Position numbers and translations under genes: made by a program. From Candidatus Puniceispirillum sp. (lineage in GTDB: Bacteria; Pseudomonadota; Alphaproteobacteria; Puniceispirillales; Puniceispirillaceae): DNA of 64,000 bases. Below, piece by piece: positions 23,290-39,098 of the stretch. The DNA is taken from positions 5,442 through 69,441 of the forward strand of contig JAOEVD010000003.1 in the NCBI GenBank assembly GCA_028383305.1, written 5' to 3'. The notes under the pieces were generated by a model. The model did no database searches and was not told the origin of the DNA. It saw only the letters and a list, made by a program, of their open reading frames with translations. Each line of letters starts with the position of its first letter. The stretch's first letter is position 1.

Positions 23290-24096
23290 CTAAGGGGTTG
23301 CATTGGGAAAAAACAAAGGCCTGTTTGCAGGTTGGAAAGTGGCAATTGCGGTTTGCCCCTTGGGTGATAACAGCCAATCGGCAAAAACACGGGATTCGGC
23401 CACCTTTATCGTTGGGCAGTGGGTTTGACTGACCAAAACAACGCCATATTGGTTGAACAATGCCGGATCCCCCTGAAATAGCGGTATATGCGCGGTTTTG
23501 TTTTTGAATGTCAGCCATGTTGCCCGATCGGTAAGGGCATAGGCATCAGCCTGAACCGCAAAATTGAGCGTTGCTCCCATACCAAGGCCGGTTTCAAGAT
23601 ACCATTTGCCGCTTGCATCTGTTGGCGTTGTGCTTGCTGCCTGCCAAAATCGGCGTTCGGCCTTATGTGTGCCGCTATCATCACTTCGTGATGCGAATCT
23701 GGCTTTAGCTGCGGCAATTTTCTGAAAAGCCTCAATTGTTGTTTTGGCGGTTCTGATTTGTGCTGGATCATCCTTTGGTCCAACCAGAATGAAATCATTA
23801 TACATTAAATCATGGCGCTGACTGCCAAAGCCATCGATTACAAATTTTTCTTCATCAATTTTTGAATGGACAATGACCAGTTCGGCATCACATTTTTTGG
23901 CATTGCGAAGCGCCTGACCCGTGCCAACCGAAACAATTCGCACATTAATATCATTTTCAGCCTCGAATAACGGCAATAGATGGTCGTAAAGACCCGAATT
24001 TTGGATTGTGGTGGCGGATTGAACAATGATCACTGGCTTGGCAGCATGGCCAGTCATGGCGTAAAAGCTGGTCAAAAGCGCAATATAACCCGCCAT
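23290..24096 (-). CDS. tupA: Tungstate ABC substrate-binding protein TupA-like
   Basis: NSGL..LLP, VGTGQAL, MYNDF..GP..DPA, SRSDDSGTH, GMGATL, DRATW, NQY; start uncertain (24096 or 24162). Confidence 0.8.
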   Translation of the reverse strand: MAGYIALLTSFYAMTGHAAKPVIIVQSATTIQNSGLYDHLLPLFEAENDINVRIVSVGTGQALRNAKKCDAELVIVHSKIDEEKFVIDGFGSQRHDLMYNDFILVGPKDDPAQIRTAKTTIEAFQKIAAAKARFASRSDDSGTHKAERRFWQAASTTPTDASGKWYLETGLGMGATLNFAVQADAYALTDRATWLTFKNKTAHIPLFQGDPALFNQYGVVLVSQTHCPTIKVAESRVFADWLLSPKGQTAIATFQPANRPLFFPNATP

Positions 24097-24161
24097 CACC
24101 AATCGCGTGAAACACGATAGGCGGCGCAAAATTGAAAAAAAGCTGAAACCAAGTTGGATCA

Positions 24162-24188
24162 TTCTTATGTTTTATTGAATATTAAGAA
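24162..24188. promoter_or_regulatory. Candidate ModE/Mo-box between divergent tupA and modE
   Basis: TTCTTATGTTTTATTGAATATTAAGAA, inverted TTCTTA..TAAGAA arms. Confidence 0.35.
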
Positions 24189-24285
24189 GCGTTGCAAACC
24201 CGATGTTTTGTTTTTCATATCGCCTAGCATGTGGATAATAGGTAAGGTTGAGACGGACAGTATTTGTTGGCGAAGGAGGTCATTT

Positions 24286-24669
24286 TTGATCGCAGCAAAA
24301 AAGACACGGCATGCGGCACAAGAACCGGGGGTGCGTACGAAATTATTCATTGCTGATGAGACCATTGGCCTTGGAAAAATCAATTTGCTGGCCTTGCTTG
24401 GCGAGGCTGGGTCAATTAGCGCGGCCGCGCGCCAGATGGGAATGAGTTATCGCCGCGCGTGGTTCCTGCTTGACTCGATGCAAAGCGGGTTTCGTGACCC
24501 TTTGTTTGTGACCGAGCGCGGAGGGTCGAGCAAAGGTGGGGCGACATTAACCCCGCTTGGCAAAGATTTGATTCGCCGCTATCGGGCGCATGTTGCCCTT
24601 GTTGACGATCAATCAGCCGATATTTTGTTATGGATGCGGTCTGTTCAGACTGATCATAATAATGATTAG
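24286..24669 (+). CDS. modE: ModE-family regulator, HTH domain only
   Basis: GKINLL..GSISAAARQMGMSYRRAW..RGG..GGATLT; AGGAGG before TTG 24286; no MOP domains. Confidence 0.85.
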   Translation: MIAAKKTRHAAQEPGVRTKLFIADETIGLGKINLLALLGEAGSISAAARQMGMSYRRAWFLLDSMQSGFRDPLFVTERGGSSKGGATLTPLGKDLIRRYRAHVALVDDQSADILLWMRSVQTDHNND

Positions 24670-24769: not shown

Positions 24770-25072
24770 ATGAAATTTCCACCATGGCATCAACGGCCTG
24801 ATGACTTTGATCCGGAAACGCATCGTGATGGCATTTTGGATAGCCAGTCTTTTTTGCGCGTTGCCGACCAGTTTATCTCGCTGGCAAATCAGCGAAACAA
24901 AAAGATCGAATCAACCGAATTACAAATGGTAATGCTGTATGCGGCGGCGCGTTATGCCGCGCATGTTGGCAAAAATGTTTTGAATGTTGAAGAACAAGAA
25001 GATTTTGTTCAGCATATGGTGGCACAATATGCCGATATGTTGCGTGAACATATGGCCGATCCAACGGTTTAG
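24770..25072 (+). CDS. Hypothetical protein (DUF3144-like)
   Basis: ADQFISLAN..LYAAARY pattern. Confidence 0.6.
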   Translation: MKFPPWHQRPDDFDPETHRDGILDSQSFLRVADQFISLANQRNKKIESTELQMVMLYAAARYAAHVGKNVLNVEEQEDFVQHMVAQYADMLREHMADPTV

Positions 25073-25081
25073 AAAAAGGGT

Positions 25082-25477
25082 TTGTTTATTTTGCGTTTGT
25101 TTGGTCAGTCTATTATTGCCGCCGCTTTGTTTGGTGGCGCCTTTATTGGTTTAGCAGCCAAAGCCGATACCGCAGTTGAACGAGGTTTGAAAGTGGTGCG
25201 CGAACACTGCACGCGATGCCATGTTGTGCCGGGGATCAACCCTTATGGCGGTATTGGATCCACCCCGTCATTTTCGGCGATGAAATGGCTTGATGATTGG
25301 GCATATCGATTTGAGATTTTTTATATTTTGCCGCCGCATCCATCACTTGTTCGGATCGAAGGCGTAAGCGAGCCAAGAAGTGACGCCCTGCCAGCCTTTA
25401 GCAAAGAAATCATCCTTACCCTTGAGGATGTTGATGACATATTAGCATTTGTTAAAACCCTAAAAACACCCGAATAA
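25082..25477 (+). CDS. Periplasmic monoheme cytochrome c
   Basis: Signal peptide and CTRCH heme motif. Confidence 0.8.
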   Translation: MFILRLFGQSIIAAALFGGAFIGLAAKADTAVERGLKVVREHCTRCHVVPGINPYGGIGSTPSFSAMKWLDDWAYRFEIFYILPPHPSLVRIEGVSEPRSDALPAFSKEIILTLEDVDDILAFVKTLKTPE

Positions 25478-25552
25478 GGGGAAATGGTTTAACGAGCAAA
25501 GCCTCAAAATTACAAGGCCTGATGCAAAAGGCCCATTAAGATAGGAATGACG

Positions 25553-25780
25553 ATGAGCAAAGACCAACGCGAAGATATGACTGCTAGTGAAATGGCAATG
25601 CGAAAATTTTTAAAGCAGCTAGGCGTGACCGCGCATCAGGAATTGGCTGGCGCGATTGCTAAAGCCGTGGCCGATGACAAAATTGTGGCTGGCGCAGACG
25701 TGGTGGTAACAGCGCGTATTGAGATTGCCGATCTGCAATTCACACATGACGTCACGGCAAATTTGGTGGCACCTGAATAA
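25553..25780 (+). CDS. Small conserved protein (DUF6494-like)
   Basis: MRKFLKQLGVT pattern; stop directly abuts mrp start. Confidence 0.6.
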   Translation: MSKDQREDMTASEMAMRKFLKQLGVTAHQELAGAIAKAVADDKIVAGADVVVTARIEIADLQFTHDVTANLVAPE

Positions 25781-26869
25781 ATGGCCGCTTTGACCCAAGA
25801 GTTGATTCTGGCGGCGCTGGCGAATGTTCAAGACCCATCGCAGGGGCGCGATATCGTTGCGCTTGGCATGGTAACCGGCTTGCAGATCAAGGATAGCAAT
25901 ATCAGTTTTGCCCTTCAGGTGCCTGCGCATCGTGGGCCAGCAATGGAACCGGTGCGCTGTGCTGCGGAAAAGGCGGCGTTGGCGATTGACGGCGTGACCA
26001 GCGCAACCGTGATGGTTACCGCGCATGCTGGCGATCAGGGGGGCATGAGCGCCTTGTCTGAAGATGAAGGGCCAGGGACCGAAAAAATCCTTGAGAGCAA
26101 GGTGCGCCGCTTTGTTGCGGTGGCATCGGGCAAAGGCGGTGTTGGCAAATCAACAACAGCGGTAAACCTGGCCATTGCATTGCGCCTTGAGGGGTTGCGG
26201 GTTGGTTTGCTTGACGCCGATGTTTATGGGCCGTCACAGCCGCGTATGCTTGGTGTGAGTGGTCGTCCGGCGTCGGCGGGTGGTGACATGGTAAAGCCGC
26301 TGGAAAGCTATGGCGTGCATCTAATGTCGATGGGATTGCTGGTGCCTGACGATACGGCGATGATCTGGCGTGGACCGATGGTGCAATCGGCGTTGACGCA
26401 AATGCTGGACTCGGTTGCATGGGGCGTGCTTGATGTGATCATTATTGATTTGCCGCCCGGAACCGGTGATATTCAGATATCATTGGCGCAACAGGTGAAT
26501 TTGGCGGGGGCCGTGATTGTGTCAACGCCGCAGGATATTGCCCTGCTAGATGTTGTTAAAGCATTGACAATGTTCGAAAAAGCGAATGTGCCGGTACTGG
26601 GGATGGTGCAGAATATGTCGTATTGGAGTTGTCCGGATTGTGGCCGTAAAGACCATATTTTTGGCGATGGCGGCGCAGCGCGCGAGGCGAAAAAACGTGG
26701 TATTGAACTGCTTGGGGAAATTCCTTTGTCAATGGCAGTTCGGGTTGGTTCGGATTCAGGGACTCCCATTGTTGTTGCCGAGCCGCAATCTGAACAGGCA
26801 AAGACTTTTCGCAGTATTGCTAGACGTTTGATGGTGGTCGCCGATCTCCATAATGAGGAAAGCGCATGA
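25781..26869 (+). CDS. apbC: Mrp/ApbC Fe-S cluster carrier ATPase
   Basis: N-terminal DUF59-like domain, GKGGVGKST, DADVYGPS, WRGP, DLPPGTGD, CPDC. Confidence 0.92.
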   Translation: MAALTQELILAALANVQDPSQGRDIVALGMVTGLQIKDSNISFALQVPAHRGPAMEPVRCAAEKAALAIDGVTSATVMVTAHAGDQGGMSALSEDEGPGTEKILESKVRRFVAVASGKGGVGKSTTAVNLAIALRLEGLRVGLLDADVYGPSQPRMLGVSGRPASAGGDMVKPLESYGVHLMSMGLLVPDDTAMIWRGPMVQSALTQMLDSVAWGVLDVIIIDLPPGTGDIQISLAQQVNLAGAVIVSTPQDIALLDVVKALTMFEKANVPVLGMVQNMSYWSCPDCGRKDHIFGDGGAAREAKKRGIELLGEIPLSMAVRVGSDSGTPIVVAEPQSEQAKTFRSIARRLMVVADLHNEESA

Positions 26870-27639
26870 CATTGTATTATGAAGATGATCCGGCCGATCA
26901 AACAACCGTGCCGCAATTGCCGCCTTTGCTAAGGGCTGTTGAAGTGCCTGCAGGTCAGGATGTGTTGGCCAAGGCCGTTGCGGTCGCCGCAAATACCGAA
27001 GTTGGCACTGTTTTTTACGCTGAAAGAATTGACCGGATGCAGATTGCCGTTCGACTAGAGCCGGATGTTGCGGTTCGTCAAGCTGGGCAGATGCTGTTTG
27101 CAATGATGATTGGGCTTGGTGACTCAATCGGGGCGCTAGCGCCGCCTGAGATTGCTGTCACATATCAATTGCCGGGCTATGTAATGCTAAATCGTGGGCG
27201 TGCCGGCATGGTGCGTTTGGTAATTGATCCGACAGCAGGCAGCGATGATGTGCCAAAATGGATGATTGTCAGCGCCGATGTGCGTTTGACCGCTGACGAA
27301 CAGGATCAGGCTGAATGGTCACAAACCCCTGGCGCAGAACAAACCTCGATGGCCGAAGAAGGGGGCGGGTTTATTTCGCGCACCCGCTTGGTTGAATCAA
27401 GCTGCCGACATTTTCTTGCTTGGGTAAACCGCTGGCAAGATGACGGTTTCCGCCCGCTTTATGACAGTTGGATGCAGCGGCTAGAAGCATCCGCGCCAAT
27501 CGATTTCGCTGGCGGTGAACAGGCTGAATGGCTTGGTCTTGATGAACATGGCGGCGCGTTGGTTAAGCTTGATGGAAAAGCATCATCGGTTATGCCACAT
27601 GAACTCGAAGCTGTTTGTGGTACGCCAGTTCTGCCCTAA
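26866..27639 (+). CDS. Biotin/lipoate ligase-fold protein (divergent)
   Basis: AVRLEP..LAPPE..NRGRAG..TSMAEEG..RHFLAW..W..DGF..GLDEHGG pattern; overlaps mrp stop (ATGA). Confidence 0.65.
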   Translation: MTLYYEDDPADQTTVPQLPPLLRAVEVPAGQDVLAKAVAVAANTEVGTVFYAERIDRMQIAVRLEPDVAVRQAGQMLFAMMIGLGDSIGALAPPEIAVTYQLPGYVMLNRGRAGMVRLVIDPTAGSDDVPKWMIVSADVRLTADEQDQAEWSQTPGAEQTSMAEEGGGFISRTRLVESSCRHFLAWVNRWQDDGFRPLYDSWMQRLEASAPIDFAGGEQAEWLGLDEHGGALVKLDGKASSVMPHELEAVCGTPVLP

Positions 27640-27679
27640 GGGGCTGGTCTGTTGTGGATAGGGAATTGGTAAACCAGCT

Positions 27680-28201
27680 ATGAAACTCGCAAAAACCATC
27701 CGGTTTGACCGGTCTGATCTGAATGTGTTTCCGCTGGCAGCTGATGAAGGCGAATGGGCGCTTGTTGGCACTTTCTGCTTTGCTGGTATTGGCGAGACAG
27801 ATATTAAAGGCAAGGTAAAACAAGCGTTTAGCAATGGGTTTTTTGGGCTTGATTCAATGGGCTTCTCAACCTTGGTTAGCATTGTCACAGTAAAGCCGGA
27901 TGATCTTGGCAAGATTGAAAAACGGCTTTGTTCGATTTTTATGAATGAGTTTGGTGCCCCTGACGAAGCAGCGGCGATGGCCGCGGTGGCTGAAGAAATC
28001 AAATTTATGGCAGATTTATGCGCCGAACATAAAACTGGCACTTTGCTGGCGATTCAGCGCAGTCTTGGCGATGACGGAATTCGCGAGTTGTTTCGCAGCC
28101 TTGCCAAGCCTGAATCTTGCGCCGAGCAGAAAATCTGGACAATGGTCGATGATGATGACGCCGCAGATAGTGCTGAAGGTCATGCGCATGGCAAGGGATA
28201 A
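27680..28201 (+). CDS. FDH-associated hypothetical protein (DUF6505-like)
   Basis: MKLAKTIRFDRSDLNVF..GEWA..QAFSNGF. Confidence 0.65.
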   Translation: MKLAKTIRFDRSDLNVFPLAADEGEWALVGTFCFAGIGETDIKGKVKQAFSNGFFGLDSMGFSTLVSIVTVKPDDLGKIEKRLCSIFMNEFGAPDEAAAMAAVAEEIKFMADLCAEHKTGTLLAIQRSLGDDGIRELFRSLAKPESCAEQKIWTMVDDDDAADSAEGHAHGKG

Positions 28202-28242
28202 TAGGCACCGGTGATTGGGCCTTCATGGAGTTTGAGAACGCA

Positions 28243-29232
28243 ATGAGCAATGATTTTTGGCTTACCTCTGGATGGCATTTAACACTTCGTGACGATTATG
28301 GGCATATGGTGCCAATCGCCGATTTTATGCGCGCCTATTTCATGCGTGAAGAAGTGGCCCCTGAAGAGGGGTCATGTGATGCTGAAATTGCGCTTCATAA
28401 GAAATTGGTTGATGATCCTTTTGCTGCGGTGGTGCCAACGGATCTGTTTGAAATTGCTGATAAAGATGTTGTGCATAATTATCAGGCGGTTTTGCGGTTC
28501 CGTAATTTTCTGGCAGATTACCCGACTTTGGAATCGGCCTACCTGGCAATGGCACGCAATGCCCAGCCAAATATCCCACCGCTGTTTTTTGAACAGATAG
28601 CGCAGATTATTCTTCGTAATATTCTTGATGGCGAAACCGACCCCTTGCAATTACGGGCAGCCGAGATTCTATTCCGCAATCAGGTGGTGACGATTGATGA
28701 TGGGCGGATCATGGTTGCGGATCACGCAACAGTGCAGCTGCAATCAGGCATGCAAAAGGCGCTTAAGCCAACAAGTGCGAATGATGAGGTGCAAATTGAT
28801 ATTCTTGCAACGGAAACGGCCGATGAATATTGGGAACGATCCGACCTGTTTAACACATCAATTGACATCGCCTATACCCAGCCAGCACTTGATGGTTTGG
28901 CACGGGTTTTGGAAAAATGGATTGCGCATTTTCTGCCGCTTACGGTTCGCGTTTCGCCAATGGTCAAAATCGAAGATGAAGCCTGGTCATGGCATATTGG
29001 CCTTGATGCCGAAGCCACCAAAATTCTGAATGACCTGTATCGTGGTGACGAGGTTGATGCGCCGAGATTGCGGCGCATTTTATGTCTTTTCAAATTGGAA
29101 ACCGATAACGGGTTTGTCGCTGAAATGGCAGGTAAGCCGGTTTACCTTGGGCTGGCAATGGATGAGGCAGGGGTCGCAAGAATGAAACCGCAGAACTTGC
29201 TTGTAAATCTGCCGGTTAGCGATTCATCTTAA
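28243..29232 (+). CDS. FDH-associated hypothetical protein (DUF6352-like)
   Basis: DFWLTSGWHL start, W.WHIGLD, C-terminal KPQNLLVNLP. Confidence 0.65.
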   Translation: MSNDFWLTSGWHLTLRDDYGHMVPIADFMRAYFMREEVAPEEGSCDAEIALHKKLVDDPFAAVVPTDLFEIADKDVVHNYQAVLRFRNFLADYPTLESAYLAMARNAQPNIPPLFFEQIAQIILRNILDGETDPLQLRAAEILFRNQVVTIDDGRIMVADHATVQLQSGMQKALKPTSANDEVQIDILATETADEYWERSDLFNTSIDIAYTQPALDGLARVLEKWIAHFLPLTVRVSPMVKIEDEAWSWHIGLDAEATKILNDLYRGDEVDAPRLRRILCLFKLETDNGFVAEMAGKPVYLGLAMDEAGVARMKPQNLLVNLPVSDSS

Positions 29233-29307
29233 TTTAATATTTGAATATCTATAAGGCTGACATGCGGCAGATTTCAAATCCAAACTGCCCCAGATTTAAC
29301 GGCTTGA

Positions 29308-31338
29308 TTAATTCAGGTAATCGTCAGTCGTGCGGGGTTTTGGCCGATCGCGCATTTCCATCATTTTATCTTTCTGCTCGAACATGGCCTCAACACGGCA
29401 ATCTTCACACATTTTCAGGATGTCGGTCTTTGCGCTGTCTTGAAACATGCTGTGATCGGCGAGCTTGCTGATCACCCGCTCGATTGATTTTGAACTGCCA
29501 AATGGTTTGCCGCAGGATGTGCATTCAAATGGTGTATCTTCGATAATCAGCTCGGTTGCCATCGCGCTGTCGGCAAGATTGAATTGCGGCACAAGCGCGA
29601 TCACTTTTTCAGGGCAGGTTGCAACGCAAATACCGCATTGCAGACAGGCATCTTCACGGAATAGCAATTGCGGTGCATCAGGATTATCCTGCAACGCGCC
29701 AGCGGGGCAGGCGCTGACACAAGACAGGCAGATCGTACAATTATCTGTATCAATCTCAACACGGCCATAAGGCGCGCCAGCAGGCAAATCAATCATGGTT
29801 CCCGCCGTGCCATTTGCGTTGGCAAGGCCGCGCATGGCAAGCCGTGTCATTGAACGCGGCGCACCAATCGGGCTGAATGGCGCTGGCTTAGCATTGTTTT
29901 TACACGGGCTGTTGTAAAAGATTTCGGCAACCGCGTCAGGATCGACAGCATCTACAAGAATAATACGGTTATCAGCATCAGCCTTTACACCGGAAAGCAT
30001 CGATCTTGCCAATGTCACCTGATCGACAAGCGGGGCATTTTCGACGTCTTTAGCTGGATTCAGCAGTACAAAGACCTGCTGATAACCAAGCGCAATTGCT
30101 GCCACCATAATATCATGTCCAGCACGGCCCATTGCATGCATCGAAACAGGCAGTAGACTGGCTGGTAAACCGCGGCCAAAACGGGCAATGGTTTCAATCA
30201 TTTCGGCGCCATAGGAATCATCATGAAGTAATAGGCTTGGGGCTTTGCCGCCAGCTGTCTGATAATAATCATGAAGGTTCGCGATGCTGGTTAACAGCCC
30301 GTCTGCAGGCGGGTAGGCGGTTTGTGCCGCACCCGATGGACAGACTGCGCCACAAAGGCCGCAGCCACCGCAAATGGCCGGATCAATTGCAACATGATCG
30401 CCAAGGCTTTGAATGGCACCGGCTGGGCAGACATCAAGGCAACGTGAACAGCCGTCAATTTTATTGCGCGAATGAGCGCAAAGATTTTCATCAAAATTCA
30501 CATAGATTGGCTTTTCAAAGCCGCCAATCATTTGCGCAGCTTCGCTTTCGATAGCGGCAAGCGCGTTGATGTCATCACCCGCGGCGCGGAAATATCCGTC
30601 GCGTTTTTCCCAGCCGGTGAAAAGTGGTGTATCGCCGGTTAGATCGATCAGAATATCGCAGCTTGTTTCGACATCATTTGCTCGATTTTCAAATTGAAGC
30701 GAGTCACGGCTTGATGGCAAGGCCGCGCCAAATTGGTCAACCACTATATCGAAATGCGTGAAATGGCCTTTGGCGCTTTTGATTTTACCCGTTGCAAGGA
30801 TGCCGCAGTCCTTTGTTGGAAATAGATCATCGTTTGGATTGGCAATCATAACGGTAACGCCCAATTGACCATTTAATTTCTGGCCAAGCGCAATGGCAGC
30901 ATCGGCACCGCCGTTCGGACGACCCATATCGGCATAAATTAAACAGCGGCCGTCAGAATTTAGCGCAAGGCTTCGTGATGGTGTTTGGCGATCACCTGAC
31001 TGTTTGATCAAAGCGGCAATTTTGGCCGTGCTGCTTGCTGACTCATCTGACCAGCCAGCGCGCTCACGGATATTGACGGTTGCAGGCAAGGGGCATTCAA
31101 TTTCTTCGGCAATGGCGTTAAAAACTGATGTTTCCTGTGTGCAGGCAATCAATAAAGATTGATTCGCGTCACGGGCGTCGCGCATGGCAGCGGCCAGATC
31201 GCCTGTTTCTGTCCGGCAAAGCGAGGTTGCGATCTTGCAGCCACCCTCGGCACCGCAGGCTTTTGCCAGTTTGGTGCCGTCGAGCGTCATTGTGCCGTCG
31301 CAATTACACAGGATTACCTTGGCGTCTGATAAATTCAT
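29308..31338 (-). CDS. Multi-4Fe-4S protein associated with formate dehydrogenase
   Basis: CNC..LCR..ACTQE..NIRE N-terminus; CAH..CSRCLDVCP, CGGCGLCGAVCP, CTICLSCVSACP, CLQCGICVATCP, CTSCG, CEDC. Confidence 0.85.
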   Translation of the reverse strand: MNLSDAKVILCNCDGTMTLDGTKLAKACGAEGGCKIATSLCRTETGDLAAAMRDARDANQSLLIACTQETSVFNAIAEEIECPLPATVNIRERAGWSDESASSTAKIAALIKQSGDRQTPSRSLALNSDGRCLIYADMGRPNGGADAAIALGQKLNGQLGVTVMIANPNDDLFPTKDCGILATGKIKSAKGHFTHFDIVVDQFGAALPSSRDSLQFENRANDVETSCDILIDLTGDTPLFTGWEKRDGYFRAAGDDINALAAIESEAAQMIGGFEKPIYVNFDENLCAHSRNKIDGCSRCLDVCPAGAIQSLGDHVAIDPAICGGCGLCGAVCPSGAAQTAYPPADGLLTSIANLHDYYQTAGGKAPSLLLHDDSYGAEMIETIARFGRGLPASLLPVSMHAMGRAGHDIMVAAIALGYQQVFVLLNPAKDVENAPLVDQVTLARSMLSGVKADADNRIILVDAVDPDAVAEIFYNSPCKNNAKPAPFSPIGAPRSMTRLAMRGLANANGTAGTMIDLPAGAPYGRVEIDTDNCTICLSCVSACPAGALQDNPDAPQLLFREDACLQCGICVATCPEKVIALVPQFNLADSAMATELIIEDTPFECTSCGKPFGSSKSIERVISKLADHSMFQDSAKTDILKMCEDCRVEAMFEQKDKMMEMRDRPKPRTTDDYLN

Positions 31339-31474
31339 CGAAAAAACCTTTTGATTGCGTTGTGGCCAGGGTTGTTTGAATACAAGTTGTCCCGCTAAAC
31401 TAGCTTACATCGCGCTAAAGACAAGTACGTTTCGCGATATACCTTGCAAAGCGCAGACATTTTGATGGATAGTC

Positions 31475-32140
31475 GTGGACATTGATGGGAGTTTCTTTAC
31501 CGTGACCAATGTAATTACGCCAGCCAGTCGGCATGTTCTTTATGCCGTTCGGTTGATTATTGAACGCCAGTCGATTGAAAATAAATGGCAATCGCACCGC
31601 TGGGTAATCCATGATCTGGTGCCCCTTGAGCTTAGCGCCGGTGGTGGATTGCCACCAAGTAATGATGTTCAGTTTCAGCGTTTGCGTCAGCCATCCGGGG
31701 ATGATTCCAGTGACTTGCTGTTCACTGCCGAAGCATCGCTTGATCTGCATCGCGCCGAAGCCGAGGCCTATGCGGAAAATTTGGCATCGTCTGAACCGGC
31801 GATCTATGCGGTTTTGCGGCATAATGAAGATGAAGATGACTCAGGTGATGAAGACATTGACATTCATCTCGCTGAAATCAGCCTGTCACCCTACAATATC
31901 CAAGACTACGAGGATTGCGGAGAAGATCAGGTTGAAAAATTACCGTTGCAAGGTCCGATTGCCGAGTTTGTCAAAGAGTTTGTTGAAATCCATTTCAAGC
32001 CAGAACCATTTATAAAGCGCAAACGTGACAAGGCGCGCCTTGACCGTGACCAGCTTGGTGGGGCCGACCCACGCTTGCGCCGCGATGGTGATATGTTTCA
32101 GGTGCCGTCTGACCGTAAGAAGCGTGGTGAGTATCATTAG
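31475..32140 (+). CDS. DUF3305-like protein
   Basis: LHRAEAEAY.ENL, F.KRKR motifs; start could be GTG 31502. Confidence 0.7.
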   Translation: MDIDGSFFTVTNVITPASRHVLYAVRLIIERQSIENKWQSHRWVIHDLVPLELSAGGGLPPSNDVQFQRLRQPSGDDSSDLLFTAEASLDLHRAEAEAYAENLASSEPAIYAVLRHNEDEDDSGDEDIDIHLAEISLSPYNIQDYEDCGEDQVEKLPLQGPIAEFVKEFVEIHFKPEPFIKRKRDKARLDRDQLGGADPRLRRDGDMFQVPSDRKKRGEYH

Positions 32141-32208
32141 ATCTGTGTTAAGGTGCGATTGCAAAAGCGATTATATTTTTCATTAAATCAGAATATGGGG
32201 TCAAATGT

Positions 32209-33144
32209 ATGGCGCGTCGTATGAAATATGATGTTGAGGCCAAGGAAGAAGCCAACGACGGTGAGGGTGGGTTTTTGTCGCGCTGGTCAGCGCGCAAAAG
32301 CCAAATTGCCAAAGGCGAAGGTGTGCCAGATGAGGTGCCCGCACCCGAAATTGCCGAAGATACTGGCGTCGAAGATGAGGAAGACGCTGCATTAACCGAT
32401 GCTGAGCTTCTTGAAAAATATGATCTTCCCGATCCTGAGGCAATCACCGAAGAAAGCGGGCTTGAACAATTTTTGAACGGTAAGGGCCTTCCTGGGCGTG
32501 TGCGGCAAATGGCACTGCGGCGTTTGTGGCGGTTGAATCCGCTATTTGGCATTATTGATGATATGGTTGAATATGGCGAGGATTACACCGATGCCGCCAC
32601 TGTCATTGAAGGCATGAAAACTGCTTATACCGTTGGCAAGGGCTATGCAAAAGAGGTTGTTGAACCGGAAGAAACCGAAGTCCTAGAGGGCGACGCTGAG
32701 GCCAAAGAGGGTAATGTCGAAGCCAAAGAAGGCGATGCCGAAGCCAAAGATGCCGAAAAAGACGGCCAGCAGGATGAAAAAGAGCATGCCGATGACCTGG
32801 CCGACCAGCCTGATCAGGCAAAGGCGCGCGAAACCGACGAAGCTAGTGACGCTGATGCTCGTTTGGCGCAACAAAATGATGCTGAAACGGCCGTAATGCA
32901 GGATGAACTGTTCAAAATTCTGGATAAAAATCAGATGGTTTTGGACGATTTTGGCGAGAAACAAGCCGAATTTGCCAGTTCCGCGCCTGCGTCAGTGGAA
33001 AATAGCACTGCTGATATTAAAGCGCCGCAAGCGCCCGTTGGCGGCCATGCCCAAATGAAAGAAACCACCATTTATGGAGAAAAAACTCTGCAAAATCATA
33101 TTCCTGCTTGGCGTCCAGCAAGGATGGATTTTCGGAAAAAATAG
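32209..33144 (+). CDS. DUF3306-like acidic protein
   Basis: FLSRWSARK, ALRRLWRLNP, DDMVEYGEDYT. Confidence 0.7.
   Translation: MARRMKYDVEAKEEANDGEGGFLSRWSARKSQIAKGEGVPDEVPAPEIAEDTGVEDEEDAALTDAELLEKYDLPDPEAITEESGLEQFLNGKGLPGRVRQMALRRLWRLNPLFGIIDDMVEYGEDYTDAATVIEGMKTAYTVGKGYAKEVVEPEETEVLEGDAEAKEGNVEAKEGDAEAKDAEKDGQQDEKEHADDLADQPDQAKARETDEASDADARLAQQNDAETAVMQDELFKILDKNQMVLDDFGEKQAEFASSAPASVENSTADIKAPQAPVGGHAQMKETTIYGEKTLQNHIPAWRPARMDFRKK
32686..32760 (+). repeat. Three imperfect 21-bp tandem repeats (EGDAEAK) inside the DUF3306-like gene
   Basis: GAGGGCGACGCTGAGGCCAAA / GAGGGTAATGTCGAAGCCAAA / GAAGGCGATGCCGAAGCCAAA plus a partial unit. Confidence 0.75.
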
Positions 33145-33291
33145 ATCCGTTCAAACCGTCACCTTTTTTTGGTTTACATCTGTTTAAAGATTGTTTCCAA
33201 AATTTGTAAAAATCTTTCCAAATGAGAACTGTTGCATTGCGGGGGTGGTTTTGATGTGTTAGCGTTTTGTATACAGAATTAGGATCGTTGA

Positions 33292-33906
33292 ATGAAAAAC
33301 GCAGATGTAGTGCCGATTGAAATTGCTGAAGAAGACGTTCTTCGTGCCGATATGTACGATTTTGTCGCCTCACTGCTGCGCACAGAGCCTAGCGATGAGT
33401 TGATTGCGCAAATCGCGCTTTTGCAAGGCGATAAAACGCCAATTGGCAGCGCTTGTCTGACTCTGGCTCATCTTGCGAAAACAATCGATAATGAGCTGAT
33501 TCGCAACGAATATGTTTCGTTATTTATTGGCGTTGGCCGCGGTGAAATTCTGCCATTTGCATCTTATTATTTGACTGGTTTCTTGAATGATAAGCCGTTA
33601 GCAAATCTGCGTTCGGACATGAATGCCATTGGCATTCGGCGCGTCGAAGGGGTGAAAGAGCCTGAAGATCACATAGCTAGCCTATTTGATATGATGTCAG
33701 GGCTGATTCGTGGCCGGTTTGGGCGGCGCTTCTCAGTTGGTGAACAGGCCACGTTTTTCCGTAAACACATTGAACCATGGGCTGACTTGCTGATGCGTGA
33801 CATTGAGGCTGCAAAAACTGCTGTGTTTTTTGCGCCGGTGGGTGTGATTGGTCGAGCCTTTTTAGAGATTGAAAGCCAAGCTTTCAGTATGGATGGAACA
33901 GGATAG
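33292..33906 (+). CDS. TorD/DmsD-family redox enzyme maturation chaperone
   Basis: LPFASYY, EPEDHI, FFRKHIEPW. Confidence 0.9.
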   Translation: MKNADVVPIEIAEEDVLRADMYDFVASLLRTEPSDELIAQIALLQGDKTPIGSACLTLAHLAKTIDNELIRNEYVSLFIGVGRGEILPFASYYLTGFLNDKPLANLRSDMNAIGIRRVEGVKEPEDHIASLFDMMSGLIRGRFGRRFSVGEQATFFRKHIEPWADLLMRDIEAAKTAVFFAPVGVIGRAFLEIESQAFSMDGTG

Positions 33907-33965
33907 CGTAAGGCTCCTGTTTTATAGAGTCACACATGAGGTGTGGCACATTTTTGGAGGGAAAA

Positions 33966-34163
33966 ATGGAAGATACAAACAAAAAAGATGCAGTTGCAGG
34001 TCGTCGTGACTTCCTCAAGGGTTCTGCAGTATCTGTTGCGGCTGTCGGTGTGGTAGCGGTTGCAGGTAAATCAGCATCAGCAGGCGAAGTTGAAGTGGTG
34101 TCAGGTTCTGGCTACCGCGAGACGGAACATGTTAAAGCGTTTTACGCTTCAGCAAGGTTTTAA
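33966..34163 (+). CDS. Small twin-arginine signal protein preceding FDH alpha
   Basis: RRDFLKG, GYRETEHVKAFY; GGAGG RBS. Confidence 0.8.
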   Translation: MEDTNKKDAVAGRRDFLKGSAVSVAAVGVVAVAGKSASAGEVEVVSGSGYRETEHVKAFYASARF

Positions 34164-34194: not shown

Positions 34195-37086
34195 ATGCTT
34201 AGAAAGAAGACGTCCGGGGTTGCGAATGGCCCCCTGTCATCATCTTTCATTGGCAAGGCAGCCGAAACGGTTGTTGACCGCCGCGCATTTTTGCGTGGTT
34301 CCGGTCTTGCTATTGGAGGTTTAGCGACTGCCGCAGCATTGGTTGGGTCAAATGTGACGCCAGCTCAAGCTGTAGGCTCAGCAGCATCAGTTGAAATTAG
34401 AAAGTCAGTTTGTACGCATTGTTCGGTTGGTTGTACCGTTGTTGCTGAAGTGCAAAATGGCGTTTGGACTGGTCAAGAACCTGGTTGGGATAGCCCAATC
34501 AATCTTGGTGCGCATTGTGCCAAAGGTGCTTCCGTGCGGGAAACCGCAAGCGGTGAGCGGCGCCTTAAATACCCAATGAAGCTTACTGGCGGAAAATGGG
34601 TGCGGATGAGCTGGGACGATGCCATAAATGAGATTGGCGATCAGATGCTGGATATTCGCGAGAAGTCTGGCCCCGATTCAGTTTACTGGCTGGGATCTGC
34701 AAAGCATAGCAACGAGCAGGCCTATTTGTTCCGCAAGTTTTATGCTTATTGGGGTACAAACAACGGTGACCATCAGGCCCGTATTTGTCACTCAACCACA
34801 GTTGCCGGTGTTGCGAACACCTGGGGCTATGGTGCGATGACCAACTCATATAATGATATGCATAATTCAAAGGCAATTTTCATTATTGGTGGTAACCCTG
34901 CCGAGGCACATCCAGTCTCACTTATGCATGTTCTCAAAGCAAAAGAGCAAAACAACGCACCTGTGATCGTTTGTGATCCGCGCTTTACCCGTACAGCAGC
35001 CCATGCCGATGAGTATGTTCGCTTCCGTCCGGGTTCAGATGTTGCGCTCATTTGGGGCATCATGTGGCACATTTTTGACAACAAGTGGGAGGATAAAGAA
35101 TTTATCCGCCAGCGGGTTTACGGCATGGAAGACGTCATGGCCGAAGTCAAAAAATGGGATCCAGCTGAAACCGAGCGTGTAACTGGTGTTCCAGGTGCGC
35201 AGCTAAAGCGTGTTGCCAAGATCATGGCAAACAACCGTCCGGGTACCTTTGTATGGTGTATGGGTGGAACACAGCACACAAACGGTAACAATAACACCCG
35301 TGCATATTGTGCATTCCAGCTCGCACTTGGAAACATGGGTACTGCCGGTGGTGGTGCTAACATTTTCCGTGGTCACTGTAACGTGCAGGGTGCAACGGAC
35401 TTCTGTGTTCTTTCACACTCACTGCCGGGCTATTATGGTCTGTCAGCTGGCGCGTGGAAACATTGGGCACGTGTCTGGGACGAAGATATCGATTGGCTGA
35501 AAGGTCGTTTTGACTCAATTAAAGGCAAAGACGGCAAGTCAAAGAGCCTGATGAACCAGAAAGGCATTCCGGTTTCACGCTGGATTGACGGTGTTCTTGA
35601 GGACAAAGAGAATATTGACCAGCCAGACAATCTTCGTGCAATGGTGTTCTGGGGACACGCTCCAAACTCACAGACTCGCATGAAAGAAATGAAGACGGCA
35701 ATGGAAAAGCTCGACCTAATGGTTGTGATCGATCCATATCCGACTGTTTCTGCTGTCTTGTCGGATCGTACCGACGGTGTTTACCTGCTGCCAGCAACGA
35801 CTCAGTTCGAAACCTATGGTTCTGTAACTGCTTCAAATCGTTCGCTTCAGTGGCGTGAAAAGATCATCGAGCCATCATTTGACTCGTTGCCTGATCACAC
35901 CATCATCTACAAGTTTGCCAAGAAGTTTGGTTTTGCTGATCGTATGTTCCGCAAGATCAAAGTCACCAATGACGAGCCATATGTTGAAGATGTGACTCGT
36001 GAATTTAATGGTGGCATGTGGACAATTGGTTACACTGGCCAGTCGCCAGAGCGGATCAAAGCCCATATGGCAAATCAGCATGTGTTTGACAGAACAACAT
36101 TGCAGGCTGTCGGTGGTGAACTTGACGGCGAATATTACGGTCTGCCTTGGCCTTGCTGGGGTACTGCAGAGATGGGCCATCCAGGCACACCTTTGTTGTA
36201 CGATACATCAAAGCCTGTAGCTGAAGGTGGTCTCTGTTTCCGCGCCCGTTTCGGTGTAGAGCATGAGGGCAACAATCTGTTGGCTGAAGGTTCTTACCCT
36301 GTCGGGTCTGAAATCAAAGACGGGTACCCAGAATTTACTATGGGTATGCTGAAAAAGCTTGGCTGGGACGGTGATCTTACCGCAGACGAGCGTGCGGCTA
36401 TCGAAAAGGTCGCTGGTGACAAGACCAACTGGAAGGTTGACCTTTCAGGCGGTATCCAGCGGGTAGCGATCAAGCATGGTTGTGCACCATTTGGTAACGC
36501 GAAAGCACGGGTGAAGGTCTGGACATTCCCAGATCCAATTCCGCTACATCGTGAGCCATTGTACACATCACGTCGTGATCTCGTTGCCGATTATCCAACC
36601 TATTCAGACCGTAAACTATATCGTCTGCCGACTTTGTATAAGTCGATCCAGGATGTAGACCATACGGCTGCTTATCCGATGATTTTGACCTCTGGTCGTC
36701 TTGTCGAATATGAAGGTGGTGGTGATGAAACCCGTTCAAACCCATGGCTTGCAGAATTGCAGCAGGACATGTTTGTCGAGATGAACCCATTCGATGCCAA
36801 CGGAAAGAATATCCGTAACGGTGATATGGTTTGGGTTAAGACACCAGAAGGTGCACAGATCAAGGTGATGGCTCAGGTTACTGAGCGTGTTGCTAAGGGT
36901 GTTGCCTTCTTGCCATTCCACTTTGGTGGACATCTTGAGGGTAAAGATCTTCGTTCCAAGTATCCTGAGGGTGCAGATCCTTATGTGCTTGGTGAATCAG
37001 CCAACACAGCGTTCACTTATGGTTATGACTCAGTGACATTGATGCAGGAATCGAAATGTTCGCTCTGCACAATTGAACGCGTATAA
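34195..37086 (+). CDS. fdhA: Periplasmic formate dehydrogenase alpha subunit (Fdh3A/FdnG-like)
   Basis: Tat motif DRRAFLR, CTHCSVGC..HCAKG, HQARICHSTT (Cys ligand), RGHCNVQG. Confidence 0.95.
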   Translation: MLRKKTSGVANGPLSSSFIGKAAETVVDRRAFLRGSGLAIGGLATAAALVGSNVTPAQAVGSAASVEIRKSVCTHCSVGCTVVAEVQNGVWTGQEPGWDSPINLGAHCAKGASVRETASGERRLKYPMKLTGGKWVRMSWDDAINEIGDQMLDIREKSGPDSVYWLGSAKHSNEQAYLFRKFYAYWGTNNGDHQARICHSTTVAGVANTWGYGAMTNSYNDMHNSKAIFIIGGNPAEAHPVSLMHVLKAKEQNNAPVIVCDPRFTRTAAHADEYVRFRPGSDVALIWGIMWHIFDNKWEDKEFIRQRVYGMEDVMAEVKKWDPAETERVTGVPGAQLKRVAKIMANNRPGTFVWCMGGTQHTNGNNNTRAYCAFQLALGNMGTAGGGANIFRGHCNVQGATDFCVLSHSLPGYYGLSAGAWKHWARVWDEDIDWLKGRFDSIKGKDGKSKSLMNQKGIPVSRWIDGVLEDKENIDQPDNLRAMVFWGHAPNSQTRMKEMKTAMEKLDLMVVIDPYPTVSAVLSDRTDGVYLLPATTQFETYGSVTASNRSLQWREKIIEPSFDSLPDHTIIYKFAKKFGFADRMFRKIKVTNDEPYVEDVTREFNGGMWTIGYTGQSPERIKAHMANQHVFDRTTLQAVGGELDGEYYGLPWPCWGTAEMGHPGTPLLYDTSKPVAEGGLCFRARFGVEHEGNNLLAEGSYPVGSEIKDGYPEFTMGMLKKLGWDGDLTADERAAIEKVAGDKTNWKVDLSGGIQRVAIKHGCAPFGNAKARVKVWTFPDPIPLHREPLYTSRRDLVADYPTYSDRKLYRLPTLYKSIQDVDHTAAYPMILTSGRLVEYEGGGDETRSNPWLAELQQDMFVEMNPFDANGKNIRNGDMVWVKTPEGAQIKVMAQVTERVAKGVAFLPFHFGGHLEGKDLRSKYPEGADPYVLGESANTAFTYGYDSVTLMQESKCSLCTIERV

Positions 37087-37097: not shown

Positions 37098-37688
37098 ATG
37101 GCAAGAATGAAATTCCTATGTGATGCAGAACGCTGTATCGAATGTAACGCCTGTGTTACTGCATGTAAGAACGAGCATGAGGTGCCGTGGGGTGTAAATC
37201 GTCGTCGGGTGGTTACCATCCAAGACGGTAAGCCTGGCGAACGCTCAATCTCTGTTGCATGTATGCATTGCTCAGACGCGCCTTGCACGGCCGTTTGTCC
37301 TGTCGATTGTTTCTATCAGACCGAACAAGGTGTGGTTTTACATTCAAAGGATCTTTGCATTGGCTGTGGTTATTGCTTCTACGCATGTCCTTTCGGGGCA
37401 CCGCAATATCCACAGGCTGGTAACTATGGTTCACGTGGCAAAATGGACAAATGTACATTCTGCGCAGGTGGTCCAGAAGAAGATATGAGCAGTCTGGAGT
37501 TCCAGAAATACGGACGTAACCGTCTGGCTGAAGGCAAGCTGCCAATTTGTGCAGAAATGTGTTCAACTAAGGCGTTGCTCGCAGGTGATGGAGACCAAGT
37601 CTCTAACATCTTCCGTGAGCGTATTGTTGCCCGTGGATTTGGCTCTGGCGCTTGGGGATGGGGCACTGCCTATTCCATCAAGGGCTAA
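37098..37688 (+). CDS. fdhB: Formate dehydrogenase Fe-S beta subunit (Fdh3B-like)
   Basis: Four 4Fe-4S motifs (CIECNAC, CMHC, CIGCGYC, CTFC). Confidence 0.93.
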   Translation: MARMKFLCDAERCIECNACVTACKNEHEVPWGVNRRRVVTIQDGKPGERSISVACMHCSDAPCTAVCPVDCFYQTEQGVVLHSKDLCIGCGYCFYACPFGAPQYPQAGNYGSRGKMDKCTFCAGGPEEDMSSLEFQKYGRNRLAEGKLPICAEMCSTKALLAGDGDQVSNIFRERIVARGFGSGAWGWGTAYSIKG

Positions 37689-38009: not shown

Positions 38010-38042
38010 ATGCGCGATTTAAAGCTAGGGAGACCGGGGAAT

Positions 38043-39098
38043 ATGTTACGCAAATATTTAGGTGTTTTGGCCATTCTTGCGGCGTTGTTTATCAGCACAA
38101 CAGGAACTGTTTCGCCAGCAATGGCTCAGACAAATGGTGAGGTGCCTGGCACCGCGCTCGGTATCAAGTCTGATACAGATTTATGGCGCTTTGTGCGGAC
38201 TGGTAATGCCGGTTCGACACAAATGAAAGACGAATTATCGGCCGTGATGATCCAATCCGAAGGCGATAATTGGCGTGCCTTTCGCAACGGTCCATTATCG
38301 GTTTATGGCGCTTACGGCCTGGCTGGTATCATTGGCTTGCTTGTTGTTTTCTATATGGTCCGCGGCCGGATCACAATCGATGCGGGCCCATCCGAAGACA
38401 GGATTATGCGGTTTGGAACGATTGACCGGTTTGCCCATTGGCTGATGGCTGGTTCTTTTGTTGTTTTGGGAATAACCGGCTTGAATTTGCTTTATGGTCG
38501 TTATGTTCTTTTGCCAATTATCGGCAAAGACGCCTTTGCGACCATCACCACATTTGGGAAATATGCGCACAATTATCTGGCTTTTGCCTTTATGCTTGGT
38601 TTGGGTCTGGCGTTTATTTTGTGGGTTCGCCACAATATCCCAAACAAGCTTGACCTAAAATGGTTGGCCATGGGCGGCGGTATCTTTGCCAAAGGCGTTC
38701 ATCCACCAGCGCGTAAATTCAATGCAGGTCAGAAAATCATTTTCTGGGCAGTGATGATTGGTGGCCTTTCGGTCAGTATGTCAGGCATTGCGCTGATGTT
38801 CCCATTCCAGACAAGTATGTTTGCGGAAACATTCGCCTTGTTGAACAGCATTGGCTTTAGCCTGCCAACCGATTTCACACCGCTTCAAGAACAGCAGATG
38901 AATCAGCTTTGGCATGGTGTGGTGTCACTCGGCCTTATGACCATGATTGTTGCGCATATCTATATCGGTTCTGTTGGTATGGAAGGCGCTCTTGATGCGA
39001 TGAATTCAGGTATGGTTGATCGTAACTGGGCGAAAGAGCATCATAATCTTTGGGTTGAAGAAGAAGACCAAAAAGTCAACCCAAAGCCTGCTGAATAA
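38043..39098 (+). CDS. fdhC: Formate dehydrogenase gamma subunit (cytochrome b556) with N-terminal extension
   Basis: RFAHW, AHNY, KFNAGQK, WHG, AHIY, WAKEHH. Confidence 0.92.
   Translation: MLRKYLGVLAILAALFISTTGTVSPAMAQTNGEVPGTALGIKSDTDLWRFVRTGNAGSTQMKDELSAVMIQSEGDNWRAFRNGPLSVYGAYGLAGIIGLLVVFYMVRGRITIDAGPSEDRIMRFGTIDRFAHWLMAGSFVVLGITGLNLLYGRYVLLPIIGKDAFATITTFGKYAHNYLAFAFMLGLGLAFILWVRHNIPNKLDLKWLAMGGGIFAKGVHPPARKFNAGQKIIFWAVMIGGLSVSMSGIALMFPFQTSMFAETFALLNSIGFSLPTDFTPLQEQQMNQLWHGVVSLGLMTMIVAHIYIGSVGMEGALDAMNSGMVDRNWAKEHHNLWVEEEDQKVNPKPAE

What the first reader, a model, noticed from the sequence alone, without database searches (positions are those of the whole stretch)
24770..33906. Eleven-gene, largely uncharacterised FDH maturation/electron-transfer block
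Seen: DUF3144-like, cytochrome c, DUF6494-like, Mrp/ApbC, ligase-fold protein, DUF6505-like, DUF6352-like, polyferredoxin, DUF3305-like, DUF3306-like and TorD lie between modE and the periplasmic FDH, several translationally coupled. Known: only Mrp (Fe-S delivery) and TorD (Tat chaperone) have defined functions. No fdhD or fdhE is in the window. Inference: an alternative, undescribed assembly line for W/Mo-FDH.
Basis: partly seen in the sequence, partly recalled or inferred. Interest (0 to 1): 0.7.

Follow-up and report, generated by a model that had tools for sequence, protein, structure and literature searches.

The report
Tungsten formate dehydrogenase helper genes
These eleven genes sit beside an exported, likely tungsten-containing formate dehydrogenase; a core of them travels strictly with that enzyme type and likely helps load its metal centres alongside, not instead of, the standard helper FdhD, and one is predicted to be a stripped-down relative of a methanogen electron-transfer complex, none of which has been tested by experiment.

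Summary
All eleven genes are real and the family calls hold. It is not one operon: the polyferredoxin is on the minus strand, and only two junctions are coupled here. The "alternative assembly line" is not supported: fdhD is elsewhere in this genome, next to mobA, and in 20 of 20 genomes with this FDH type. What is missing is FdhE (0 of 20); a TorD homologue is already known to serve a periplasmic FDH alongside FdhD. The block has three layers. A core (polyferredoxin, DUF3305, DUF3306, TorD): DUF3305 occurs in 20 of 20 FDH3 genomes and 0 of 180 others. An optional add-on (Mrp paralog, biotin-ligase-fold pseudo-enzyme, DUF6505, DUF6352). Loose members (cytochrome c, DUF6494, DUF3144). TupA (20 of 20), a W-type MoeA and close similarity to Shewanella W-FdhA point to tungsten. 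The core's linkage to fdh operons was noted in 2015. New here: the "polyferredoxin" models as a condensed HdrA-MvhD-HycF fusion without HdrA's flavin motif or MvhD's [2Fe-2S] cysteines, and DUF3305 has no match among solved folds and is fused to MobA in some genomes. Most likely these are enzyme-specific maturation factors working like NapD/NapF; untested.

The parts
23290..24162 (-). tupA-like tungstate-binding protein (second copy; the tupABC operon is on contig C11)
   Evidence: NCBIfam TupA E 1e-55, below its cut-off; C11 copy 49% identical with adjacent ABC permease/ATPase-like ORFs
24154..24669 (+). ModE-like HTH regulator (true start probably later than the longest ORF)
   Evidence: TIGR00637 E 4e-18, below cut-off
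24770..25072 (+). DUF3144 protein; loose member, seen at FDH3 loci only together with DUF6352
   Evidence: 1/20 FDH3 genomes vs 7/180 others; 4 of 58 full-flank loci, all four with DUF6352
25082..25477 (+). Monohaem cytochrome c with hydrophobic N-terminus; likely periplasmic electron carrier, not a maturase
   Evidence: PF00034 21.7 bits; CxxCH in sequence; co-occurs with WD40-cytochrome c, 29 both, 6 and 7 single, 16 neither of 58 loci
25547..25780 (+). DUF6494 small protein, abutting mrp; loose member
   Evidence: 6/20 vs 3/180
25781..26869 (+). Mrp/ApbC Fe-S cluster carrier; second copy beside another Mrp on C34 (47.5% identical)
   Evidence: PF10609 and PF01883; 51 of 58 alphaproteobacterial loci, 6 of 21 loci in the phylum sample
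26866..27639 (+). Biotin-ligase-fold protein lacking BirA's catalytic residues (likely pseudo-enzyme)
   Evidence: PF16917; PDB 3BFM E 2e-93, BirA only E 4e-4; KWPND motif and catalytic Lys position not conserved in 66 homologues
27680..28201 (+). DUF6505 protein; add-on module
   Evidence: 12/20 vs 0/180; coupled to BPL in 58 of 62 loci
28225..29232 (+). DUF6352 protein; add-on module
   Evidence: 7/20 vs 0/180, 2 of the 7 unlinked; one DUF6505-DUF6352 fusion, P0111
29308..31338 (-). 676-aa cytoplasmic Fe-S protein: HdrA N-terminal Cys4 domain, flavin-motif-less Rossmann domain, 2[4Fe-4S], Cys-less MvhD-like domain, 2[4Fe-4S], HycF-like C-terminal Cys4 site; core
   Evidence: model pLDDT 88.9; HdrA sequence match E 2e-6 over the N-terminus; MvhD Z 14.4, HdrA Z 12.0; HycF Foldseek E 5e-7; 24 Cys invariant in 78/78
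31475..32140 (+). DUF3305 protein (start may be GTG 31502); core; fused to MobA or DUF3306 in some genomes
   Evidence: 20/20 vs 0/180; fusions P0142, P0248, P0236; model pLDDT 89.4, best Z 3.3
32209..33144 (+). DUF3306 protein; small conserved core plus long acidic unconserved stretches; core
   Evidence: 56 of 58 loci; coupled to DUF3305 in 71 of 75 loci
33292..33906 (+). TorD-family chaperone (FdhT/FdhM type); core
   Evidence: PF02613; 21 of 21 FDH3 loci
33936..34163 (+). Small Tat-signal protein (FdhX type)
   Evidence: TIGR02811 above cut-off
34195..37086 (+). FdhA, Tat-exported, Cys-type, closest solved relative Shewanella FdhA (9VAP)
   Evidence: RRAFL motif; 1382.8 bits vs 297 for the next structure
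37098..37688 (+). FdhB, FDH3 beta subunit
   Evidence: NF038355 341 bits, cut-off 240
38010..39098 (+). FdhC cytochrome b subunit
   Evidence: TIGR01583 above cut-off
39109..40500 (+). WD40 beta-propeller plus cytochrome c; frequent companion of the locus
   Evidence: 35 of 58 loci
44003..45785 (+). mobB-moeA; MoeA carries the W-type Arg286/Ala307 signature
   Evidence: signature from PMC13197769

Best explanation
The block is a mosaic set of mostly cytoplasmic accessory genes tied to the Tat-exported FDH3-type formate dehydrogenase, and it likely helps load that enzyme's tungsten and iron-sulfur centres before export, in addition to the standard FdhD route. Shown: genes, domain content, co-occurrence, fusions, and a complete moeA/mobB/mobA/fdhD set in the genome. 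Inferred steps: (1) W-type MoeA, MobB, MobA and FdhD make sulfurated W-bis-MGD. (2) The TorD homologue holds pre-FdhA by its Tat signal, doing FdhE's job. (3) DUF3305 with DUF3306 acts as an adaptor between MobA/FdhD and apo-FdhA. (4) The HdrA-MvhD-derived Fe-S protein works like NapF, giving clusters or reducing equivalents to FdhAB. (5) In many alphaproteobacteria a second Mrp, with the ligase-fold pseudo-enzyme, DUF6505 and sometimes DUF6352, feeds clusters into that step. (6) The cytochrome c is an optional periplasmic electron carrier, and DUF6494 and DUF3144 are loose passengers.
For: DUF3305 is in the same 20 of 200 genomes as FDH3 beta, with two copies in the one genome with two enzymes, and in 0 of 180 others. 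The Fe-S protein is in 0 of 180 FDH3-negative genomes. TupA is in 20/20 vs 7/180. Four of 5 TupA-positive, FDH3-negative genomes tested hold a 60-75% match to the window's cytoplasmic MeFDH1-like FDH yet have none of DUF3305, the Fe-S protein, DUF6505 or DUF6352, so the genes follow the exported enzyme, not tungsten as such. MobA-DUF3305 fusions (NCBIfam PRK14489). None of the ten non-cytochrome proteins has a Tat motif or strong hydrophobic segment, so they cannot take electrons from periplasmic FdhAB directly. Purified SoFdhAB shows two bands only (PMC13066108, section 6). Precedents: NapF/NapD, and FdhM plus FdhD in Campylobacter (PMC10609526).
Against: No mutant, binding or activity data were found for any of the DUFs. 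The Fe-S protein's invariant clusters and HdrA/MvhD ancestry fit a permanent electron wire as well as a donor of labile clusters. The add-on module is missing from 8 of 20 FDH3 genomes, so it is not generally required. The 20 positive genomes come from only 10 families, so counts overstate independence. The Fe-S profile was built from 19 of those 20 genomes. In two genomes DUF6352 lies far from any FDH gene, in unrelated surroundings.
Confidence: 0.6

Rival explanations
1. The HdrA-MvhD-derived Fe-S protein is a standing cytoplasmic electron wire. It draws low-potential electrons from the FDH3 system, for example at the cytoplasmic face of FdhC, or reductively reactivates the enzyme, and the DUFs anchor it. 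The block would then be an electron-transfer module rather than an assembly line.
For: Four [4Fe-4S] motifs plus two further Cys4 sites are invariant in 78/78 homologues. The fold derives from HdrA and MvhD, which wire FDH to Hdr in methanogens. One gene order places it directly behind fdhC (L020).
Against: It has no membrane segment or export signal. The flavin motif and MvhD [2Fe-2S] ligands, which carry out bifurcation and hand-over in Hdr, are lost. Neighbours and fusions are with cofactor genes: fdhD, mobA, mobB, moeA, tup.
Confidence: 0.2
2. Only TorD matters for assembly. The other genes sense tungsten, iron or redox state, protect or repair the enzyme, or are co-inherited passengers with small effects.
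For: Membership is mosaic: DUF6352 4/58, DUF3144 4/58, DUF6494 22/58. NapF and napL deletions have only marginal effects in some species (PMC10609526). DUF6494 and DUF3144 occur in unrelated contexts.
Against: DUF3305 is kept one-to-one across 10 families, with matched copy number. Coupling is conserved in 71/75, 58/60 and 58/62 junctions. MobA fusions.
Confidence: 0.15
3. One reading: the block replaces FdhD/FdhE as a separate route for cofactor sulfuration and delivery.
For: FdhE is absent from 20 of 20 FDH3 genomes and from this one. A ligase fold beside an Fe-S carrier could suggest sulfur chemistry. Whether FDH3 itself uses FdhD was not tested here.
Against: FdhD is in 20/20 genomes and within 10 of 21 loci. 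The ligase fold lacks its catalytic residues. FdhD is needed for W- and Mo-FDH in M. extorquens (PMC13197769).
Confidence: 0.05

Closest known systems
Shewanella oneidensis FdhT-FdhX-FdhA1B1C1 (SoFdhAB, PDB 9VAP; PMC13066108)
   Same: Same enzyme type (1382.8 bits over residues 27-962) and the same order TorD-like chaperone, small Tat protein, fdhABC; that enzyme holds 0.78 W and 0.05 Mo per protein.
   Different: The passages read do not treat the Fe-S protein or the DUFs. The gammaproteobacterial loci of families f44/f49 carry a shorter Fe-S protein without the N-terminal Cys4 domain and no BPL/DUF6505/Mrp.
NapD/NapF maturation pair of periplasmic nitrate reductase (PMC10609526)
   Same: A Tat-signal chaperone plus a cytoplasmic multi-[4Fe-4S] protein encoded with a Tat-exported bis-MGD enzyme.
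   Different: No NapF-like architecture: the protein here is 676 aa and built from HdrA, MvhD and HycF-like domains; DUF3305/DUF3306 and the Mrp module have no Nap counterpart.
HdrA-MvhD of methanogen Hdr-Mvh/Fdh complexes (PDB 5ODH, 8RVU, 7BKB) and fused HdrA2
   Same: N-terminal Cys4 domain, Rossmann domain, C-terminal 2[4Fe-4S] and MvhD fold in the same order.
   Different: GxGxxG flavin motif degenerate; about 320 aligned residues against HdrA's ~650; MvhD cysteines gone; extra HycF-like C-terminal unit; no HdrB/C seen among the neighbours.
Campylobacter jejuni FdhM + FdhD (PMC10609526, section 7)
   Same: [quoted passage not shown]
   Different: Campylobacterota were not sampled here; whether they carry the other core genes was not tested.
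Biotin protein ligase BirA / PDB 3BFM
   Same: Same fold family; 3BFM is a close relative (E 2e-93).
   Different: BirA's KWPND motif and catalytic lysine are not conserved; 3BFM is of unknown function.
W-cofactor pathway MoeA1-MobB-MobA-FdhD of Methylorubrum extorquens (PMC13197769)
   Same: The genome has all four, and the mobB-linked MoeA has the W-type Arg/Ala pair.
   Different: That pathway was defined for the cytoplasmic FDH1; the paper's text has no mention of FDH3 or any DUF.

Membership tests
FDH3-type periplasmic FDH (Shewanella FdhA1B1C1 type) | FDH3 beta subunit above family cut-off, Tat-signal FdhA, cytochrome b FdhC | tested here: met
   NF038355 341/240 bits, TIGR01583 138/116 bits; RRAFL; 9VAP top hit
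FDH3-type periplasmic FDH (Shewanella FdhA1B1C1 type) | Tungsten in the holoenzyme | not testable with these tools
   Indirect only: TupA 20/20, W-type MoeA, W measured in SoFdhAB (PMC13066108)
FdhD-independent maturation route | Absence of fdhD from genomes with the block | tested here: not met
   fdhD in own genome and 20/20
TorD/FdhM-type Tat chaperone | TorD-family domain encoded next to its Tat substrate | tested here: met
   PF02613 above cut-off; 21/21 loci
TorD/FdhM-type Tat chaperone | Binds the FdhA signal peptide | not tested
   No binding prediction could be run
HdrA (electron-bifurcating flavoprotein) | HdrA fold with N-terminal and ferredoxin Fe-S domains | tested here: met
   Z 12.0, rmsd 6.4, 320 aligned to 8RVY_A; N-terminal Cys4 aligned
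HdrA (electron-bifurcating flavoprotein) | GxGxxG FAD-binding motif | tested here: not met
   HdrA GGGVAG aligns to a variable stretch with one conserved Gly; FAD binding itself was not tested
MvhD | MvhD fold | tested here: met
   Z 14.4, rmsd 3.0, 127 of 137 residues, model 364-491
MvhD | Cysteine ligands of the [2Fe-2S] cluster | tested here: not met
   Only one Cys (479) in residues 364-491, and no invariant Cys there in alignment A1
NapF | Cytoplasmic protein with four tetra-cysteine [4Fe-4S] motifs | tested here: met
NapF | NapF family score and size | tested here: not met
   TIGR00402 39.9 bits vs cut-off 102.2, one ferredoxin unit only
NapF | Binds the catalytic precursor and transfers clusters | not testable with these tools
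   Needs experiment; the complex predictor was not available
Biotin/lipoate protein ligase (active) | KWPND motif and catalytic lysine | tested here: not met
   the Lys position is Arg in 19 of 66 and variable otherwise
Mrp/ApbC Fe-S carrier | P-loop GKGGVGKS, NUBPL domain, C-terminal CxxC | tested here: met
   PF10609 329 bits; GKGGVGKST and CPDC in the translation

The most novel reading that the evidence does not exclude
Aerobic and facultative proteobacteria keep a flavin-less, single-chain descendant of the methanogen HdrA-MvhD electron-bifurcation module, repurposed with a new-fold MobA-linked adaptor (DUF3305/DUF3306) and a dead ligase-Mrp pair as a dedicated machine that metalates and reductively matures O2-tolerant tungsten formate dehydrogenases before export. 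These would be the missing factors for making this CO2-reducing enzyme class in other hosts.
Probability: 0.3. Interest if true: 0.78.

Novelty: new variant of a known kind. Interest (0 to 1): 0.48.

Why it matters
The enzyme served is the close relative of SoFdhAB, an oxygen-tolerant tungsten CO2 reductase of current biotechnological interest that was expressed in its native host (PMC13066108), where these genes would stay in place. If the core genes are required, they add to the W-FDH maturation pathway just defined for the cytoplasmic enzyme and explain what a foreign host would lack. The HdrA-MvhD ancestry of the Fe-S protein links methanogen FDH-Hdr wiring to marine heterotrophs. Four Pfam DUFs, one with a predicted fold unmatched among solved structures, get a specific, testable role. 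The gene neighbourhood itself is common and partly in print, which caps the surprise.

Tried and rejected
FdhD replacement: rejected. One operon or one unit: rejected (strand; loose DUF3144 and DUF6494). DUF3305/DUF3306 as membrane proteins, as PMC4464133 calls them: not supported, highest 19-residue hydropathy 0.91 and 0.42. General tungsten-cofactor genes: not supported. Homology between DUF3305, DUF6505 and DUF6352: none, probability 0.4%. Sequence searches of the DUF6352, DUF3305 and DUF6505 profiles against solved structures gave nothing significant. DUF3305 fold search: Foldseek no hit at E 0.001; VIA best Z 3.3, rmsd 5.4, to a Bacillus chain titled xanthine dehydrogenase (3ON5), too weak to use; this does not prove a new fold. 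Atlas: no usable hit for DUF6352, only DUF3305 clusters for DUF3305. The wide VIA search of the full Fe-S model listed only the Rossmann domain; MvhD appeared in the second-look search. DUF6505 fusions: only P0111 among 5157 candidates of 280-893 aa. The search for long DUF3305 fusions covered 469-2000 aa and found none; the fusions found later are shorter. Alignment A6 misplaced the DUF6505 rows and was not used. Promoter and terminator scans were near shuffle level; a simple sigma-54 pattern gave no site in the block. The protein-complex predictor was not available, so no binding was tested. One paper sought by DOI was not held.
Full report
Observation. The layout differs from a single operon. 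Seven plus-strand genes (24770-29232) converge on the minus-strand Fe-S gene (29308-31338), which is divergent from DUF3305-DUF3306-torD-fdhX-fdhA-fdhB-fdhC. Only 2 of 10 junctions are coupled in the window. In relatives coupling is the rule: Mrp-BPL 58 of 60, BPL-DUF6505 58 of 62, DUF3305-DUF3306 71 of 75 adjacent pairs (nearest in-frame start taken, so a generous count). The same gene order occurs in a Puniceispirillales record and, without a detected cytochrome c, in a SAR116 record (L037, L048).

The enzyme. FdhB passes the FDH3-beta cut-off and FdhC the gamma cut-off. FdhA has a Tat motif, and its best solved relative by far is Shewanella FdhA, 9VAP (1382.8 bits vs 297 for the next). That enzyme holds 0.78 W and 0.05 Mo per protein (PMC13066108, section 6 and passages read). 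Tungsten is also indicated by TupA in 20 of 20 FDH3 genomes vs 7 of 180 others (all hits below the family's strict cut-off). The mobB-linked MoeA has Arg286/Ala307, placed by motif spacing on the W-selective Arg291/Ala312 of Methylorubrum MoeA1, while the genome's other MoeA has Lys/Ser (PMC13197769, parts 1-3 of 7 read).

FdhD is not replaced. The genome (84% complete) has fdhD beside mobA on contig C26. FdhD is in 20 of 20 FDH3 genomes and within 10 of the 21 FDH3 loci fetched. In M. extorquens it is required for both W- and Mo-FDH activity (PMC13197769). FdhE is absent from this genome and from 20 of 20. A TorD homologue (FdhM) working alongside FdhD is described for the Campylobacter periplasmic FDH (PMC10609526, section 7 and passages read).

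Profiling. The same 200 genomes of the phylum, at least 90% complete, were searched each time; 20 have FDH3 beta, from 10 families and 15 genera, so they are not independent. DUF3305: the same 20, 0 of 180 others, two copies in the genome with two enzymes. Fe-S protein: the same 20, 0 of 180; the profile was built from 19 of those 20, so only the zero and G024 are independent. DUF6505: 12/20 vs 0/180. DUF6352: 7/20 vs 0/180, two unlinked. BPL-fold: 11/20 vs 0/180 for hits at E below 1e-40, a threshold chosen after seeing the gap; 49 further genomes have only weaker hits, presumably BirA but not checked, one of them lying in an FDH3 locus. DUF6494: 6/20 vs 3/180. DUF3144: 1/20 vs 7/180. Among 58 full-flank loci of the 80 closest Fe-S homologues (mostly roseobacters and other alphaproteobacteria): DUF3305 and DUF3306 56, TorD, FdhA and FdhB 53, BPL 52, Mrp 51, DUF6505 51, cytochrome c 36, DUF6494 22, DUF6352 4, DUF3144 4, fdhD 3. 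As a control, 5 of the 7 TupA-positive, FDH3-negative genomes were searched: 4 have a 60-75% match to the window's cytoplasmic FDH, itself closest to tungsten MeFDH1, yet none has DUF3305, the Fe-S protein, DUF6505 or DUF6352. The module follows the exported enzyme.

The 'polyferredoxin'. A 20-sequence model (pLDDT 88.9) and searches resolve it as a condensed HdrA-MvhD-HycF chain. The first ~195 profile positions match HdrA 15-244 in sequence, including the four N-terminal cysteines (E 2e-6). Residues 5-357 align to HdrA (Z 12.0, rmsd 6.4, 320 residues) and 364-491 to MvhD (Z 14.4, rmsd 3.0, 127 of 137). The C-terminus matches HycF (Foldseek E 5e-7; NCBIfam 525-663). All 24 cysteines checked are invariant in 78 of 78 homologues (some C-terminal ones were part of the search patterns). 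HdrA's GGGVAG flavin motif is degenerate and the MvhD-like domain has no conserved cysteine. It has no export signal or membrane segment. Five gammaproteobacterial homologues lack the N-terminal Cys4 domain, and their genomes also lack the BPL-fold protein and DUF6505; this is confounded with phylogeny.

The other unknowns. DUF3305 models well (pLDDT 89.4, 140 sequences) with no structural match above Z 3.3. It is fused to MobA in two and to DUF3306 in one of the 150 representatives listed (7 scanned), and NCBIfam has a MobA-DUF3305 family. DUF3306 is a short conserved core in acidic, unconserved sequence. The ligase-fold protein is a close relative of PDB 3BFM, of unknown function, and lacks BirA's KWPND motif and catalytic lysine. 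Mrp is a second copy beside another on C34. One DUF6505-DUF6352 fusion exists. The cytochrome c has a hydrophobic N-terminus and tends to occur with the WD40-cytochrome c, so it belongs to periplasmic electron exit, if to anything.

Mechanism. Best reading (0.6): enzyme-specific maturation factors added to the standard W-cofactor route. TorD proofreads the Tat signal; DUF3305/DUF3306 link MobA/FdhD to apo-FdhA; the Fe-S protein acts like NapF; the Mrp-BPL-DUF6505(-DUF6352) add-on supplies clusters in many alphaproteobacteria. Every functional step is inferred. Rivals: a standing electron wire (0.2), sensing, repair or passengers (0.15), FdhD replacement (0.05). No binding prediction could be run.

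What is in print. PMC4464133 (section 12 and passages read) reports DUF3305/DUF3306 and a 4Fe-4S gene upstream of 60% of dmsD-fdh operons, without function. It was the only relevant one of 2 papers naming these DUFs. No paper in the library names DUF6352, DUF6505, DUF6494, DUF3144 or PF16917. Searches for an HdrA/MvhD-like protein or Mrp at such loci gave no relevant title in the listings; searches with recalled locus tags listed only transcriptome and network papers or unrelated ones, seen as listings only. The library lacks most subscription journals, and supplements, including fitness tables, were not read; they could hold phenotypes. Earlier unchecked notes of this scan reach the same general reading for other genomes; none of the summaries shown mentions the HdrA-MvhD architecture.

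Verdict. A real, widespread, partly described neighbourhood; a new variant of enzyme-specific maturation systems, not an FdhD alternative. Interest 0.48, carried by the flavin-less HdrA-MvhD derivative, the unmatched DUF3305 fold and the easy test.

Noticed in passing
window 10-3454 and 8167-13851: A second, cytoplasmic NAD-type FDH closest to tungsten MeFDH1 lies beside oxalyl-CoA decarboxylase, formyl-CoA transferase and formate-THF ligase: an oxalate-to-formate island with two probably W-dependent FDHs within 35 kb.
   Followed up: partly
window 23290-24162: The window's tupA has no tupBC beside it, and reads SATTIQ where the C11 copy reads STTSTK; it may differ in anion preference.
   Followed up: no
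window 20011-21013: An NMT1-like binding-protein ORF runs straight into a partial ABC permease ORF; both look truncated, as if by an internal deletion.
   Followed up: no
window 18041-19840: 599-aa ORF with no Pfam or NCBIfam hit but a P-loop-like GASAAGKST stretch, after a TctA transporter.
   Followed up: no
window 39109-40500: WD40-propeller plus cytochrome c fusion follows fdhC and recurs in 35 of 58 loci; a candidate periplasmic electron acceptor not listed in the finding.
   Followed up: partly
window 37722-38009: Small lipoprotein-like ORF between fdhB and fdhC; a homologue was detected in 1 of 21 loci (L003).
   Followed up: no
L019:2737-8486: A second FDH3 locus in G136 has a CbbQ/NirQ/NorQ-type AAA protein a few kb upstream and a weak BPL-fold hit next to DUF3305.
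   Followed up: no
L006:10301-13803; L004, L005: Sigma-54 response regulators (with a Cache-domain kinase in L006) sit in or beside several FDH3 loci.
   Followed up: no
G000:C23:120903-122063: Second MoeA with the Mo-type Lys/Ser pair, consistent with separate W and Mo branches in a 2.4-Mb genome.
   Followed up: partly
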